A stretch of DNA of 64,000 nt, taken from NCBI RefSeq assembly GCF_054482525.1, contig NZ_CM137006.1. One strand, written 5' to 3'. Made by a program: the position numbers. Below are positions 47,801 to 53,800 of the stretch, in pieces (position 1 is the stretch's first letter; each line of letters begins with the position of its first letter).

Positions 47801-50800
47801 TCGGTTTTTATACCACCAAGCGCACCGGCGGCATGCTGGTCGATTCGCAGGCCATCAAACTGCTGAAGATTGCAGCGGCGTAATCATTCAGGGGGCGCAG
47901 AAGTGCGCCCCCTGTTCTGACAGGTGAAAGAATCATGATCCTGAAACAAGATCTGAAATGGTCACCGGACGGTATGCGTGTTGAGATTATTCGGGCCGGT
48001 GAGTATGAAGATAAAGAATTACCCGAACGGGTACGCGAAATTGCCACTGCAGCTGGGATTGTCTCTGATAAGAGAACACCTGTTGCGCGGGGGGCTGATA
48101 AGTCTAAAAAACAGCATTCATAGAGGTTGCCCAAATGATGCCCACTCTGGAAGAGCTTCGTGTTCAGTGCCGGATTGATGATGACAATGAACAGGAGAAT
48201 TCTCTTCTTATGATGTATCTGGCTGCTGCCAGGGAAGAGGCTGAAAAGTTTTTAAACCGGACGCTTTACGATGAAACTGTTTCTGAGCAGGATACGACCG
48301 GGCTTGTAATAACACCTCTGATAAAACTGCGTCTTATGCAACTGGTTGGCTACTGGTACGAGAACAGGGAAATGCAGGATGCAGTGCCTGATTTTTTCTA
48401 TACCGGACTGCGGATGTATCGATTTCATCCCGGAACATAGGAGGATTCATGCAGGCAGGAAGATTACGTGATCGTGTGGTTATTCTGAATGCCACCACCG
48501 TTCGGTCTCCGTCAGGGCACCCTGTGGAAACAATGACGGAGGGGGCAACCATATGGGCAGAAGTTAAGGGGATCAGTGGCAGGGAGAGAATATCCGGAGG
48601 CGCAGAAACTGCTCAGGCTACAGTGAGGGTCTGGATGAGATTCCGGCGAGATGTAACAGCAACTTCATGTCTGAAAGTGCTGACTGGTGCATTCAAAGGC
48701 GCGATTCTGAGTATAGACGGTCCGCCGATACCGGATGCTCGTGCCACACGGCTTGAGATACTCTGTTCTCAGAAGGGGAATGTGTGATGGATTTCAGTCT
48801 TGATTTTTCAGGTCTGGCGGATATTGCACGGGATCTGGAGACGCTCAGCAGGGCAGAAAATAATAAGGTACTGCGCGATGCCACCCGTGCCGGTGCTGAA
48901 GTTATGCGGGATGCAGTTGTTGAACGTGCGCCGGAGCGAACCGGGAAACTGAAGAAAAATGTGGTTGTTCTCACTCAGCGTTCAAAGCGTCGCGGGGAAA
49001 TTATCTCGGGTGTCCACATTCGTGGACGGAACCTGCGAACCGGAAACAGTGATAACAGCATGAAAGCCAGTGATCCCCGAAATGCGTTTTACTGGCGCTT
49101 TGTGGAGCTGGGAACGATAAACATGCCCGCGCATCCGTTCATTCGCCCGGCTTTCGATACGACAGAGGAACTGGCAGCACAGATTGCCATACAGCGAATG
49201 AATCAGGCTATTGATGAGGTCTTAAGTAAATGAGAGAGACCACACTGTATTCCCTGCTGTCTCAACTGGCCGGAGGACAGGTTTATCCTTATGTGGTCCC
49301 GCTGACGGAGGGAAAGCCTGCGGTATCTCCGCCATGGCTGGTATTTTCTGTGGTGTCTGACACTGCGTCTGATGTGCTTGATGGTCAGGCTGAATCCAGA
49401 ATTACCGTGCAGATCGATGTCTGGGCAACAGTACCTGATGACGCAGATGATATCCGTGAGCAGGCGCTTGATGCGGTAAGGCAACTTGCACCCTCCGTTA
49501 TTTCTAAAACTCAGGGTTATGATCCTGATTCCCGTCTGAGCAGAGCCACGCTTGAATTTCAGGTAATAGCCTGAGGTCGTTAATGATTTTACCCACCCGC
49601 CGCTGGCGGGTTTTTTATTTTCAGGAGACGAGTATGTCCTCTAATTTTGAGCGTTCGCAACTGACGAAAATTATGATTTCGTCTGCACCGGTAACAGCAG
49701 AAACCCTGGATTCTGCCAGCTATCTTGGCCTGAGCTGTACAATCAAAGAGGTGCAGTTTACCGCAGGACAAAAGCAGGATATTGATGTCACCACGCTGTG
49801 TTCTGTTGAGCAGGAAAATATTAACGGCCTTGGTGCCGCGTCAGAGATTTCCATGTCAGGCAACTTTTACCTCAATGCTGCCCAGAACGCGTTGCGCAGT
49901 GCCTATGACAATGACACCACGTATGGCTTTAAAGTTATTTTTCCGTCAGGCAACGGATTTACCTTTATGGCAGAGGTGCGTCAGCATACCTGGTCTGCAG
50001 GAACTAATGGTGTTGTGGCTGCAACGTTTTCCCTGCGCCTGAAAGGTAAACCTGTGCTGACGACAGAGCCGCTGAAAGTGAAGGTCGATTTAAACAGCAC
50101 GCTGCAGGTTTCTGCCGGAGCGAAACTCGAAATGGTGGTTGAGGCTGCCGGTGGTGTGCCGCCTTATTCTTATGTCTGGAAGAAAGGTAGTTCTCCTGTT
50201 TCCGGACAGACGGCGGCAACATTCAGTAAGGCATCAGCAGCATCAGGTGATGCCGGTGCGTATACCTGCGAGATTTCTGATTCAGCAAGCCCTGTTAACA
50301 AGGTGACCTCCACTTCCTGCACTGTTACCGTCAGTTAATGAGGATAGATGTGATGACTAAAAATATCCGCAATCTGGCACTGGCAACGATGTCGGGGTTT
50401 CGCCATAAAACTGTTGATGTGCCTGAATGGGAAGGGGCAACGGTTGTATTACGGGAACCTTCTGCAGAAGCCTGGTTGCGCTGGCAGGAGATCGTTAAAG
50501 CAAAAGATGATGAGACACCGTTATCCGTTGCGGAGCGCGCCCGCCGAAATCTGGAGGCAGATGTTGAACTGTTCATTGATGTTCTGTGTGATACCGGACT
50601 GCAACCTGTATTTTCAGAGGATGATCGTGAACAGGTGATTGCCGTGTATGGCCCGGTGCATGCGCGGCTTCTTCGGCAGTCTCTGGAACTGATCAGTGAT
50701 GCCGGCGAGGTTAAAAAAAAGTAGAGCTTCCGGGGATGCGTTTTCTGATGATGCTGGCGCTCAGGATGGGGCGCACATTGTCAGAGTTACGCCGGGAAAT

Positions 50801-53800
50801 GTCCGCATCAGAAATCATGATGTGGGCAGAATTTGACAGGTTCAGCCCGCTGGGTGACGAGCGGGCTGATATCCGGGCTGCCCAGATAGTTTCTGCGGTT
50901 TACGGTGCGCAGGGTGTCAAAGTCCCACTGAATGATGCGCTTCTTCAGTGGGAACAAGAGCAGACAGAAGGCGTCTCAGATCCATTTGCCGGACTGGAAA
51001 ACGCGCTTTTAATAGTGTCTCAGTGAGTCAACATAACCGCTTCGGCGGTTTTTTTCGTCCGGAGAATGAGTGTGGCGACATTACGTGAACTGATTATTAA
51101 AATCTCGGCAAATTCCCGGTCATTCCAGTCAGAGATCTCCCGGGCTTCGCGTATGGGGCAGGATTACTACCGTACCATGCAGAACGGAGGCCGGCAGTCC
51201 GCTGCTGCATCCCGTGAAATGCGGCGTGCACTGGCAGAAGTGACGGATCAGATAAATACAGCTAAATCTTCGGCACTGAATATGGCGGGGGCATTTGCCG
51301 GAGCTTTTGCTACCGGTCATCTTATTTCTCTCGCCGATGAGTGGAATTCAGTAAATGCCCGTCTGAAGCAGGCTTCACAGTCCAGTGATGATTTTCAGGT
51401 ATCACAACGTGAATTAATGGCAATCAGCCAGAGAACGGGAACGGCGTTTTCTGATAACGCCAGCCTTTTTGCCCGCTCTGCAGCTTCCATGCGGGAGTAT
51501 GGCTACAGTTCTGAGGAGGTACTGAAAGTCACCGAGGCGATCTCCACGGGCCTGAAATTATCCGGTGCCAGTACAGCAGAAGCCAGTTCGGTGATCACGC
51601 AGTTCAGTCAGGCACTGGCGCAGGGAGTGCTGCGCGGTGAAGAATTTAACGCTGTGAATGAGAACGGCGATCGTGTTATTCGTGCGCTGGCTGCGGGAAT
51701 GGGTGTTGCCCGTAAGGATCTGAAGGCCATGGCGGATAACGGAAAACTGACCGCCGATAAGGTTGTTCCTGCACTGATTAGTCAGCTTGGGGCGTTGCGT
51801 GATGAATATGCAGCAATGCCTGATACTGTTTCATCCTCTGCAACCAAAGTTGAAAACGCCTTTATGGCCTGGGTTGGTGGTGCGAACGAGGCAAGCGGAG
51901 TGACAAAGACACTCACCGGGGTGTTGAATGGTGTTGCAGACAATATTGATACCGTGGCTGCTGCAGCTGGCGCACTGGTTGCCGTCGGGGTAGCCCGATA
52001 TTTTGGCAATATGGCGTCGTCTGCTGGATCTGCAACTGCCGGATTAATTACTGCATCCAGAAACGAAGTGGCTCTTGCTGAAGCGCAACTTCGGGGGACA
52101 CAGATAGCAACCGCCAGGGCGCGTGCGGCGGTTTATCGTGCGCAACAGGCGGTTGTTGCTGCTCGCGGTACCGAAAGGCAGGCCGCAGCAGAAGCGAAGC
52201 TGACAGCTGCCCAGGCGTCACTTACCCGTAATATTGCGGCCAGAACAGCGGCACAGACAACGCTGAATACTGTCACGTCAGTGGGGAGTCGTCTGTTAAG
52301 TGGTGCGCTGGGGTTGGTTGGTGGTGTGCCGGGACTCGTCATGCTGGGGGCGACGGCCTGGTACACGATGTATCAGAATCAGGAGCAGGCCAGAGAATCT
52401 GCACGCCAGTATGCCGCAACAATCGACGAAATTCGCCAGAAAACGTCGGCAATGTCGCTTCCTGAAGCGTCAGATAATGAGGAAAAGACGCGGCAGGCAC
52501 TTGATGAGCAAAACAGGTTAATTGACGAGCAGAAAAGTAAGATTAAATCCTTACAGGAAAAAATTGCTGGCTATCAGTATGTGCTGGCAAACCCGGGCTG
52601 GACAACCGATAACGGTTTTATGATTAACCACATGACGTCGGTAAAAACTGTCACAGAAGGGCTTGCAGAAGCAACAAATCAACTGGCAGTTGAACAGTCC
52701 CGTCTCACACAAATGCAGGGCAAAGCGCAATCCATTCAGGATGTGCTTGCCGGGCTGGAGGAGCGACGGGTGGCGTTGATCCGTCAACAGGCCGCGGAAC
52801 AAAACAAAGCGTATCAGTCCCTGTTGATCATGAATGGGCAGCATACCGAGTTTAATCGCCTTCTCGGGCTCGGTAATGAATTACTTCAGCAGCGACAGGG
52901 GCTGGTGAATGTACCGTTACGGCTACCACAGGCAACCCTGGATGATAAACAGCAGACCGCACTGAATAACAGCGAGCGCGAACTGGCTCTGTCCCGCCTG
53001 AAGGGGGAAGCCCGTGAGCGTGCCCGCCTGGGTTATGCTGCGGATGATCTCGGCTTTGTGGGAGAGGCGTATCAGACAGCCAGACAGAATTATATCAATA
53101 CCTCACTGGATGCCTGGCGAAATAACCAGGTAAATAAACCCAAAGCGCATAAAAAGACCGAAGCGGAAAAAACAGAAGATATTTATAAACGGCTGATTAA
53201 ACAGCAAAAAGAACAAATAGCACTGGCAGGGCAGAATACTGAACTGGCTAAGATGAAATATCAGGTCAGTCAGGGCGAATTATCAACCCTGTCAGAAGCG
53301 CAGAAAAAAACGCTTTTGCAGAATGCAGCACTTATCGACCAGAAAAAGATTCGTGAGCAGCTTGCTGCGTATGAGAGCAGTCTGGCGGACAGTAATGCCA
53401 GTGCCCGGGCATCTGACGAAGCGCAGTTGTTGGGATATGGTGAAGGCTCACGGATGCGTGAACGACTCCAGGAAATGTGGAGTATCCGGCAGGCGTTTGA
53501 GCAGAAAAATAACGAGCTACTGAGACAGTATCAGGCCGGAGAAATTGAAGAAGCCCTGTGGAAACAGGAAAAATCGCTGAATGAAAAATATCTGGAAGAG
53601 CGTCTCAGCGATCAGCAGGATTATTATGCAAAGGCTGATGCTTTACGCAGTGACTGGAATGCCGGCCTCCAGGAGGGACTGACGAACTGGGCAGACAGTG
53701 CCACCGATTATGCTTCGCAGGCGGCAGATGCTGTCGTTTCCACTATGGACGGGCTGGTATCAAATATTTCCGATGCACTGGCCGGAAATGTTGTGGACTG

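What the first reader, a model, noticed from the sequence alone, without database searches (positions are those of the whole stretch)
50715..51026. Conserved -1 programmed frameshift site for the G/GT tail chaperone pair
The G-like gene ends GTT AAA AAA AAG TAG; the heptamer A_AAA_AAG is a classic -1 slippery site and the -1 frame runs on for about 100 codons (KKVELPGMRFLMM...). This is the expected G/GT arrangement and supports the tail-module assignment. It is well known, so interest is low.
Basis: partly seen in the sequence, partly recalled or inferred. Interest (0 to 1): 0.25.

Follow-up and report, generated by a model that had tools for sequence, protein, structure and literature searches.

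The report
Tail chaperone G/GT frameshift site
This is the well-known "slippery" spot where a few ribosomes slip back one base at the end of a phage tail-assembly chaperone gene and make a longer fusion protein; it is real, conserved and ordinary, in a common E. coli prophage.

Summary
The G-like tail assembly chaperone gene (50353-50724) ends GTT AAA AAA AAG TAG. The heptamer A_AAA_AAG (50715-50721) is in the G frame. The -1 frame is open from 50715 to 51026.

A simulated slip gives a 224-aa protein carrying PF06222 (Phage_TAC_1) followed by PF06223 (Phage_tail_T). It lies between the major tail gene and the tape-measure gene of an HK97-like E. coli prophage.

In 13 further homologues, from Escherichia, Klebsiella, Cronobacter, Bordetella and Burkholderia phages plus lambda:
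- The T part is always in the -1 frame.
- An XXA_AAG motif sits at the same aligned position.
- Homology in the -1 frame starts directly after the slip lysine.

HK97, HK446 and Bcep176 are already annotated with this -1 frameshift.

Two caveats apply. The site lies in an A8 tract, so RNA polymerase slippage could add a little of the identical product. T also has weak possible starts of its own.

A downstream hairpin (6-nt spacer, z = -3.5) is predicted in this lineage, but covariation does not support it.

The parts
49634..50338 (+). Major tail (tube) protein gene with a C-terminal Ig-like domain; upstream neighbour of G
   Evidence: Matches phrog_158 major tail protein at 1e-109 and weak Ig_2/Ig_3 Pfam domains. 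The start follows the PGAP annotation of a near-identical genome.
50353..50724 (+). G-like tail assembly chaperone gene (123 aa), the zero-frame product
   Evidence: PF06222 Phage_TAC_1 matches at 9.7e-58 over residues 1-123. Phrog_344 tail assembly chaperone matches. The start has a Shine-Dalgarno score of -6.1 kcal/mol. PGAP calls it 'phage tail assembly chaperone'.
50713..50720 (+). A8 homopolymer tract containing the slip site; a possible minor RNA polymerase slippage site
   Evidence: Read directly from the sequence. All 80 related IMG/VR loci keep exactly 8 A. Two Logan contigs carry A9, which gives an in-frame 224-aa fusion ORF.
50715..50721 (+). Slippery heptamer A_AAA_AAG in the G frame, the site of the -1 shift
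   Evidence: The aligned position carries XXA_AAG in all 14 homologues.
50722..50724 (+). Zero-frame UAG stop immediately 3' of the heptamer
   Evidence: The same adjacency occurs in the Stx-phage and Klebsiella homologues, but not in HK97, lambda or the Burkholderia phages.
50721..51026 (+). T segment read in the -1 frame after the slip (101 codons, VELPGMRFLMM...VSQ, then TGA); the C-terminal part of the 224-aa GT fusion
   Evidence: PF06223 Phage_tail_T matches at 1.2e-18. Phrog_337 and phrog_14766 match.
50728..50797 (+). Predicted RNA hairpin 6 nt downstream of the heptamer, a candidate frameshift stimulator (unproven)
   Evidence: MFE is -31.7 kcal/mol, z = -3.5, with 0 of 200 shuffles folding as well. 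It ranks in the top 3.6% of 79-nt windows of the late operon, or 1.5% after GC correction. Covariation does not support it across the family.
51035..51057 (+). Terminator-like hairpin plus T-run between the T stop and the tape-measure start
   Evidence: HK97 annotates a putative terminator at the equivalent place.
51072..54311 (+). Tape measure protein gene, downstream neighbour and presumed binding partner of G/GT
   Evidence: Matches PF06120, PF20155 and PF09718 and phrog_339. The GTG 51072 start has a GGAG 7 nt upstream.

Best explanation
This is the programmed -1 ribosomal frameshift site of an HK97-type tail assembly chaperone pair.

Most ribosomes translate G (50353-50724), read AAA AAG and stop at UAG, producing the 123-aa chaperone. 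A minority slip back one base. The two lysyl-tRNAs (anticodon UUU) sitting on AAA-AAG (50716-50721) re-pair with AAA-AAA (50715-50720). Decoding then resumes at GUA (50721) and continues to 51026. The result is a 224-aa GT fusion, ...GEVKKK-VELPGMRFLMM....

By analogy with lambda, the G part of both products coats the tape-measure protein. The rarer T part recruits the major tail protein, so the slip rate sets the G:GT ratio needed to build tails.

Shown here: the sequence anatomy, the domain identities and the family-wide conservation of the frame relation and motif. Inferred: that the slip actually occurs, its efficiency, and the roles of the adjacent UAG stop and the predicted hairpin 6 nt downstream as stimulators.
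For: 1. Anatomy. The heptamer is in phase and fills the whole 10-nt overlap, and the -1 frame stays open for 100 codons past the G stop.

2. Domains. The simulated fusion carries PF06222 followed by PF06223, both far above their gathering scores. The 224-position profile phrog_14766 matches G at profile positions 1-121 and T at 123-220, so fused proteins of this kind are already in phage annotation.

3. Gene context. The pair lies between the major tail gene and the tape-measure gene.

4. Family conservation.
- tblastn with the fusion finds 198 phage records that cover at least 80% of it, and the matches listed are in two pieces, i.e. two frames.
- In 16 loci examined in detail, -1 is the frame that stays open for 79-102 codons past the G stop, against 20-82 codons for +1.
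- All 14 sequences compared, lambda included, carry XXA_AAG at the same aligned column. The variants are A_AAA_AAG, G_GGA_AAG, G_GAA_AAG and A_GCA_AAG.
- The distance from AAG to the conserved FLMxLALRxGR block changes only by whole codons (8, 9 or 10). The G stop, in contrast, floats 0-11 codons downstream.
- Residues conserved in the -1 frame (K-V/A, P, F-L) lie upstream of any conserved start codon.

5. Curated precedent. The HK97, HK446 and Bcep176 records annotate a joined -1 frameshift CDS for the homologous pair.

6. Stability of the tract. All 80 related IMG/VR loci (43 distinct sequences, 91-100% identical) keep A8, the TAG and the frame. That is notable for a mutable homopolymer.

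7. Shiftiness of the motif. A_AAA_AAG is among the three most shift-prone heptamers in E. coli, and A_AAG is the most shift-prone tetramer (PMC4066793; PMC5009743).

8. Weak independent start. The ATG at 50736 has only a background-level Shine-Dalgarno score of -4.5 kcal/mol. 29% of random positions score as well, and the median for the other late genes is -6.5. That ATG is not conserved in homologues, which carry V, I, T or L there.
Against: - No experiment has shown the fusion product in this lineage.
- RefSeq/PGAP annotates G and T as separate genes in the identical E. coli genomes listed.
- T has in-frame ATGs at 50736 and at 50748/50751. The latter is the conserved Met of 'FLM', with a Shine-Dalgarno score of -5.7 kcal/mol. 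ATG 50736 lies only 12 nt after the G stop, so reinitiation is conceivable.
- The stimulatory hairpin is only a prediction. Over the family the cells paired are 62% against 60% in shuffles. RNAalifold keeps only 5 pairs. Six of eight homologues fold no better than shuffled sequence, with |z| of 1.1 or less.
- The upstream GAGG (50707-50710) is 4 nt from the heptamer, outside the 6-17 nt range used for Shine-Dalgarno stimulators (PMC4066793).
- The A8 tract means the same protein could also arise from RNA polymerase slippage.
Confidence: 0.85

Rival explanations
1. The GT fusion is made mainly by transcriptional slippage. RNA polymerase adds one extra A while copying the A8 tract (50713-50720). 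The resulting A9 mRNA is then translated normally into the same 224-aa protein.
For: - The tract is 8 A long.
- An A9 version gives exactly the predicted fusion as a plain ORF. Two such contigs exist in Logan assemblies.
- Bacterial RNA polymerase slips efficiently on runs of 9 A or T (PMC5009743 section 43; PMC1088944).
- A8 is the shortest A-run at which any E. coli RNA polymerase slippage was detectable (PMC6260861 section 19).
Against: - A8 is at the detection threshold for E. coli RNA polymerase, which prefers T-runs.
- Homologues with the same G/T architecture have only A3-A6 at the site: GGGAAAG, GCAAAG, GGGAAAAG, AGAAAAAAG. The family-wide mechanism therefore cannot be polymerase slippage.
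- What is conserved is the ribosomal motif XXA_AAG in phase, not run length.
- The two A9 contigs could be DNA variants or homopolymer sequencing errors.
Confidence: 0.07
2. T is made as a free 92-96-aa protein by its own initiation, or by termination-reinitiation, at ATG 50736 or ATG 50748. No fusion is needed, and the heptamer is incidental.
For: - In-frame ATGs exist 12 and 24 nt after the G stop.
- PGAP and other pipelines-aa and 92-aa T proteins in the genomes listed and on over 1,000 database contigs.
- The Met of 'FLM' is conserved in all 13 HK97-type homologues.
- Some real late genes here also have weak Shine-Dalgarno sequences, such as M at -2.2 and K at -0.5 kcal/mol.
Against: - The Shine-Dalgarno score at 50736 is at background level, and its GGGG abuts the ATG.
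- ATG 50736 is not conserved.
- Residues conserved in the -1 frame lie upstream of the conserved Met. In HK97 they lie after the G stop, where neither G nor a Met-initiated T would be translated.
- The strict -1 relation, the in-phase XXA_AAG and the codon-wise linker length changes across distant phages have no explanation under independent initiation.
- Lambda T has no Met at that position.
- Reviews describe T only as the C-terminal, -1-frame part of the gpGT fusion, whose G part binds the tape measure and whose T part binds the tail tube protein (PMC5009743).
Confidence: 0.06
3. The arrangement is a relic in a decaying prophage. Neither a fusion nor T is made in useful amounts, and the site is no longer under selection.
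For: The window lies in a bacterial chromosome. Related prophages carry frameshifted genes, for example the integrase and the YdfR-like gene in the AR_0089 relative.
Against: - The whole head-tail module is intact.
- The same G/T sequence is found in isolated phages: phi467, PhiR49_2, vB_EcoS-640R1 and Evi.
- A8, TAG and the frame are invariant in 80 loci with 43 distinct sequences. Variation falls on 61 of 225 third codon positions (27%) against 52 of 449 other positions (12%).
Confidence: 0.02

Closest known systems
Phage HK97 gp13/gp14 tail assembly chaperone pair (NC_002167, CDS annotated 'translated due to a -1 frameshift')
   Same: It belongs to the same protein family, at 61.5% identity to the simulated fusion by tblastn. 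Both fusions are 224 aa. Gene order is the same. The slip lysine falls in the same alignment column, followed by K-V..PG..FLMxLALRMGRTLSEL.
   Different: HK97 has G_GAA_AAG (GGGAAAAG) rather than A_AAA_AAG in an A8 run. Its zero-frame stop lies 5 codons after the AAG, not immediately after. HK97 carries a moron (gp15) between gp14 and the tape-measure gene, which the window lacks.
Phage lambda G/GT (slip site G_GGA_AAG)
   Same: The architecture is the same: V-G-T-H order, T in the -1 frame, and the slip at an XXA_AAG that aligns with the window's site. The T part matches the same Pfam family, PF06223, and the GK|VF...F.L.LA..MGR motif lines up. The functional model comes from reviews: a G:GT ratio of about 30:1, G binding the tape measure and T binding the tail tube protein (PMC5009743).
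   Different: The G part here is PF06222, and no significant pairwise similarity to lambda G or T was found by BLASTP (E = 4.9 and 0.25). Lambda T is longer (144 against 101 residues). The heptamer differs. Lambda's stop comes 5 codons after the site.
E. coli dnaX -1 frameshift cassette (A_AAA_AAG)
   Same: It uses the identical heptamer and the same slipping tRNA-Lys(UUU). Both have a downstream stem-loop (PMC5009743), and from my own knowledge the dnaX spacer is also about 6 nt. In the window the hairpin is only predicted.
   Different: In dnaX the shift truncates the protein (gamma), whereas here it extends it. From my own knowledge, dnaX has a proven upstream Shine-Dalgarno stimulator about 10 nt away; here GAGG is only 4 nt away. 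The window's hairpin is unverified, and Rfam gives no match.
Transcriptional slippage sites (Thermus thermophilus dnaX A9; IS elements; Shigella type III secretion genes)
   Same: All involve a homopolymeric A run at the junction of two frames, where an inserted A yields the trans-frame product.
   Different: Those sites have runs of 9 or more, and run length is the conserved feature. Here the run is A8, and homologues have A3-A6.

Membership tests
G/GT-type tail assembly chaperone -1 programmed frameshift (lambda G/GT, HK97 gp13/14) | Two adjacent ORFs lie between the major tail gene and the tape-measure gene | tested here: met
   The order is 49634-50338 major tail, 50353-50724 G, 50715-51026 T frame, 51072-54311 tape measure.
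G/GT-type tail assembly chaperone -1 programmed frameshift (lambda G/GT, HK97 gp13/14) | The upstream ORF is a tail assembly chaperone and the downstream one is a T-type domain | tested here: met
   PF06222 scores 193.9 bits against a cut-off of 25. PF06223 scores 67.7 bits against a cut-off of 25.9.
G/GT-type tail assembly chaperone -1 programmed frameshift (lambda G/GT, HK97 gp13/14) | The downstream ORF is in the -1 frame relative to G and overlaps its end | tested here: met
   The overlap is 10 nt and the -1 frame is open 50715-51026. The relation is -1 in all 16 loci examined and in lambda.
G/GT-type tail assembly chaperone -1 programmed frameshift (lambda G/GT, HK97 gp13/14) | An in-phase slippery X_XXY_YYZ heptamer lies inside the overlap | tested here: met
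   A_AAA_AAG at 50715-50721 is the only strict in-frame candidate.
G/GT-type tail assembly chaperone -1 programmed frameshift (lambda G/GT, HK97 gp13/14) | The slip site is conserved in position among homologues | tested here: met
   XXA_AAG sits at the same aligned column in 14 of 14 sequences, and linker length varies only by whole codons.
G/GT-type tail assembly chaperone -1 programmed frameshift (lambda G/GT, HK97 gp13/14) | The downstream ORF lacks its own efficient translation start | tested here: inconclusive
   ATG 50736 has a background-level Shine-Dalgarno score (-4.5 kcal/mol, 29% of random sites score as well) and is not conserved. The conserved Met at 50748 scores -5.7 kcal/mol, and reinitiation 12 nt after the stop cannot be excluded.
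G/GT-type tail assembly chaperone -1 programmed frameshift (lambda G/GT, HK97 gp13/14) | The fusion protein is produced at a low fixed ratio and is required for tail assembly | not testable with these tools
   This needs a reporter assay, western blot or mass spectrometry, plus phage genetics.
dnaX-type -1 frameshift cassette (heptamer + upstream Shine-Dalgarno + downstream stem-loop) | A_AAA_AAG heptamer | tested here: met
dnaX-type -1 frameshift cassette (heptamer + upstream Shine-Dalgarno + downstream stem-loop) | A Shine-Dalgarno-like stimulator lies 6-17 nt upstream of the motif | tested here: not met
   The only Shine-Dalgarno-like element, GAGG at 50707-50710, ends 4 nt before the heptamer. 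The criterion comes from PMC4066793.
dnaX-type -1 frameshift cassette (heptamer + upstream Shine-Dalgarno + downstream stem-loop) | A stable structure lies 5-9 nt downstream and is supported by conservation or covariation | tested here: inconclusive
   A hairpin at 50728-50797 has a 6-nt spacer and z = -3.5. There is no family-wide support: 62% against 60% of cells paired, and homologues mostly fold with |z| of 1.1 or less. No Rfam family matches.
Programmed transcriptional slippage site | A homopolymeric A/T run of 9 or more whose length is conserved among homologues | tested here: not met
   The run is A8 here and A3-A6 in homologues with the same architecture.

The most novel reading that the evidence does not exclude
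In this particular lineage the G:GT ratio may be set by more than a plain ribosomal slip. The extension of the site to an A8 tract directly abutting a UAG stop could add an RNA polymerase slippage component. In addition, the prophage's own odd tRNA (38600-38676) could tune slippage on A_AAA_AAG during late gene expression. That tRNA is a homologue of the Stx-phage argN gene whose anticodon loop now reads C-C-UUU-A-A, that is anticodon UUU with C instead of the near-universal U at position 33. Nothing here tests either idea. The tRNA scores much lower than its neighbours (44 bits against 65-74) and may be non-functional.
Probability: 0.08. Interest if true: 0.5.

Novelty: already known. Interest (0 to 1): 0.15.

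Why it matters
The main value is for annotation. In the identical E. coli genomes listed, RefSeq shows G and 'T' (or 'DUF4035') as two separate small genes and omits the 224-aa GT fusion, although curated HK97-type phage records include it. Recognising the site confirms that 49.6-54.3 kb is an intact HK97-type tail module. It also gives the correct protein set for proteomics or for engineering this prophage. It does not open a new biological question.

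Tried and rejected
- Conserved downstream stimulatory RNA structure: rejected as a family feature. I mapped the window's minimum-energy hairpin onto a 13-sequence alignment. It gave 62% of cells paired against 60% in shuffles, and slid controls scored similarly on covariation. RNAalifold kept only 5 pairs. Six of eight homologues fold no better than shuffles. The hairpin remains a lineage-specific possibility.
- Reduced synonymous variation around the site within the close lineage (43 distinct sequences): uninformative. Divergence is too low outside the 3' end of T, and the four variable hairpin positions split two preserving and two breaking.
- Known RNA families: Rfam at E up to 10 over 50300-51200 gave only chance-level hits far below gathering scores.
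- Upstream Shine-Dalgarno stimulator: GAGG is too close, at 4 nt.
- Direct BLASTP to lambda G and T: not significant. The link to lambda rests on the Pfam T domain, the gene order and the aligned junction motif.
- The original Xu, Hendrix and Duda 2004 paper could not be retrieved. Statements about it come from reviews that cite it and from my own knowledge.
- I assumed the window was collinear with E. coli AR_0089. It is only 89-98% identical, in blocks, and differs entirely in the first 24 kb. I therefore used that annotation only where the sequence is identical or nearly so.

Full report
**1. Checking the observation**

The sequence at the stated coordinates reads ...GCC GGC GAG GTT AAA AAA AAG TAG AGC TTC CGG GGA TGC....

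- The upstream ORF translates to ...LISDAGEVKKK* with its stop at 50722-50724.
- The frame one base back has a TAA at 50712-50714. It is then open from 50715 to the TGA at 51024-51026 and reads KKVELPGMRFLMMLALRMGRTLSEL....
- In the G frame the heptamer is A_AAA_AAG at 50715-50721.
- The overlap of the two frames is only 10 nt, and the heptamer is the only strict in-phase X_XXY_YYZ candidate.

The bare heptamer is common: 28 copies in the window on both strands, against 14.3 expected from shuffles. It is the placement and the context that carry the information, not the word itself.

The run of A is 8 long (50713-50720). The slip codon is the only AAG lysine codon in G; the other six are AAA.

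The G gene most likely starts at ATG 50353. That start has a GAGGA 7 nt upstream, a Shine-Dalgarno score of -6.1 kcal/mol, and the Pfam match begins at residue 1. The longest-ORF ATG at 50338 is less likely.

**2. What the genes are**

I simulated the slip by reading the zero frame through AAG and then continuing from 50721. This gives a 224-aa protein.

- It matches PF06222 Phage_TAC_1 over residues 1-123 (E = 9.7e-58).
- It matches PF06223 Phage_tail_T over residues 151-219 (E = 1.2e-18).
- In PHROGs, the G half matches phrog_344 (tail assembly chaperone).
- Both halves match one 224-position profile, phrog_14766: G at positions 1-121 and T at 123-220. Fused proteins of this type are therefore already in phage annotation.

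The upstream neighbour is the major tail protein, which has a C-terminal Ig-like domain. The downstream neighbour is a 1,080-aa tape-measure protein matching PF06120, PF20155 and PF09718. After that come M-, L-, K-, I- and J-like genes.

The window is an E. coli prophage with an HK97-type head-tail module. The 728-nt G-T region is 100% identical in many complete E. coli genomes and is present in 900 of 5,426. It is 96-99% identical in the isolated phages phi467, PhiR49_2, vB_EcoS-640R1 and Evi.

**3. Comparison with relatives**

tblastn with the simulated fusion finds 226 phage records. 198 of them cover at least 80% of it, and the matches listed are in two pieces, which means two frames.

I fetched 15 loci spanning 37-97% identity, plus lambda: HK97, HK446, PhiR49_2, the Stx-phage types 2851, BP-4795, 1717 and EH1910, a Klebsiella phage, a Cronobacter phage, mEp390, ECP1, a Bordetella phage, and the Burkholderia phages phi1026b, phiE125 and Bcep176.

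- In every case -1 is the frame that stays open, for 79-102 codons beyond the G stop.
- After simulating the slip and aligning, all 14 sequences carry XXA_AAG at the same column.

| Heptamer | Phages |
|---|---|
| A_AAA_AAG | window lineage, Stx phages, Bordetella, Burkholderia |
| G_GGA_AAG | mEp390, ECP1, lambda |
| G_GAA_AAG | HK97, Cronobacter |
| A_GCA_AAG | Klebsiella |

Homology in the -1 frame begins immediately after the slip lysine (K|V or K|A, then P, then F-L-M-x-L-A-L-R-x-G-R).

The distance from AAG to that block changes only by whole codons (8, 9 or 10). The position of the G stop, in contrast, floats from 0 to 11 codons downstream.

In HK97 the conserved F-L codons lie after the G stop and before any start codon. 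Only a frameshifted ribosome would translate them.

The curated records for HK97 ('translated due to a -1 frameshift'), HK446 and Bcep176 ('alternative C-terminus for gp69; lambda T equivalent') annotate the joined CDS.

Within the close lineage, 80 IMG/VR loci (43 distinct sequences, 91-100% identical) all keep A8, the TAG and the frame relation.

**4. Mechanism**

A_AAA_AAG is one of the three most efficient -1 heptamers in E. coli, and A_AAG is the most shift-prone tetramer. This is because the single tRNA-Lys (UUU, hypermodified U34) pairs weakly with AAG and better with AAA (PMC4066793; PMC5009743). That also explains why the family can tolerate different P-site codons as long as A_AAG is kept.

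The best reading is the classical one. Most ribosomes terminate at UAG and make G. A minority slip on AAA-AAG to AAA-AAA, resume at GUA (50721) and make GT.

By analogy with lambda, the G part binds the tape measure and the T part binds the tail tube protein. The lambda ratio is about 30:1 (PMC5009743).

Two possible local stimulators exist in this lineage:
- The zero-frame stop sits immediately 3' of the heptamer. From my own knowledge, stops adjacent to slippery runs ('shifty stops', Weiss et al. 1987) raise shifting. This was not tested here.
- A hairpin is predicted at 50728-50797, beginning 6 nt after the heptamer. Its energy is -31.7 kcal/mol with z = -3.5. It ranks in the top 3.6% of 79-nt windows of the late operon, or 1.5% after GC correction, and is the most stable of the 12 plus-strand AAAAAAG contexts.

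The hairpin is not supported by family comparison. Much of its pairing falls in codons for the conserved FLMxLALRxGRTLSE peptide. It stays a hypothesis.

**5. Rivals**

*(a) Transcriptional slippage.* One extra A in the mRNA gives exactly the same protein.
- Two Logan contigs do carry A9 and hence a plain 224-aa ORF. Whether these are DNA variants, sequencing errors or RNA-derived is unknown.
- E. coli RNA polymerase slips efficiently at 9 A or T, but A8 is the shortest A-run at which any slippage was detectable.
- Homologues with the same architecture have only A3-A6.
- I therefore rate this as at most a minor contributor.

*(b) Independent initiation of T.*
- ATG 50736 lies 12 nt after the stop, but its Shine-Dalgarno score is at background level (-4.5 kcal/mol) and it is not conserved.
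- The conserved Met at 50748 scores -5.7 kcal/mol.
- This cannot be excluded as a side route. It does not explain the in-phase motif, the strict -1 relation or the conserved residues upstream of the Met.

*(c) A decaying relic.* The intact module, the isolated phages with the same sequence, and variation concentrated at third codon positions (61 of 225 against 52 of 449 elsewhere) all argue against this.

**6. Comparison with the known, and verdict**

This is a member of the HK97 gp13/gp14 family. It works like lambda G/GT. It shares the T domain family with lambda but not detectable pairwise similarity.

It shares its heptamer with dnaX. It lacks a correctly spaced upstream Shine-Dalgarno sequence, and no Rfam frameshift element matches.

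The phenomenon, the family and even this exact sequence are already in the databases. The only gap is that PGAP does not annotate the fusion in this lineage.

The feature is already known, and interest is low.

Noticed in passing
window 38523-38832 (+), especially 38600-38676: The prophage carries a cluster of four tRNA genes: anticodon CAT (called Ile by PGAP in a relative), Lys-UUU, Thr-UGU and Gly-UCC. In the AR_0089 relative the equivalent cluster lies just downstream of the Q antiterminator gene. The 'tRNA-Lys' is about 80% identical to argN (tRNA-Arg) of Stx phage 933W. Its anticodon loop reads C-C-UUU-A-A, against C-U-UCG-A-A in argN. That is an anticodon switch to UUU with C at the normally invariant U33. 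Its Rfam score is lower than its neighbours' (44 bits against 65-74). This would be the tRNA species that reads the slippery AAA/AAG codons. Whether it is functional is unknown.
   Followed up: partly
L100 1590-1600 (Logan ERR14294372) and L101 530-540 (Logan SRR15827851): Two public assemblies carry A9 instead of A8 at the slip site. This turns G and T into one ordinary 224-aa ORF identical to the predicted frameshift product. It could be a real replication-slippage variant, a homopolymer sequencing error, or RNA-derived reads.
   Followed up: partly
window 49595-49621 and 51035-51057 (+): Two intrinsic-terminator-like hairpins with T-runs sit inside the late operon. One lies just before the major tail gene and the other between T and the tape-measure gene. 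Seven such sites were found in the 2-kb scan, against 1.6 expected. HK97 annotates putative terminators at equivalent spots. Presumably they are read through under Q antitermination.
   Followed up: partly
window 51027-51071 compared with L002 (HK97) 2147-2435: HK97 and HK446 carry a small 'moron' gene (gp15) with its own terminator between gp14 and the tape-measure gene. The window has only a 45-nt spacer with the terminator-like hairpin there.
   Followed up: no
window 55349-56092 and 55990-56637 (+): The K-like (C40 peptidase) and I-like tail assembly ORFs overlap by about 100 nt in different frames, both in the ORF list and in the PGAP annotation of a relative. The true start of the I-like gene may be further downstream.
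   Followed up: no
window 1-24055: The first 24 kb do not match the yersiniabactin island that occupies the corresponding position in E. coli AR_0089. The prophage itself lies next to tRNA-Ser (25127-25216) and tRNA-Asn (24060-24135). I did not examine the content of this left part.
   Followed up: no
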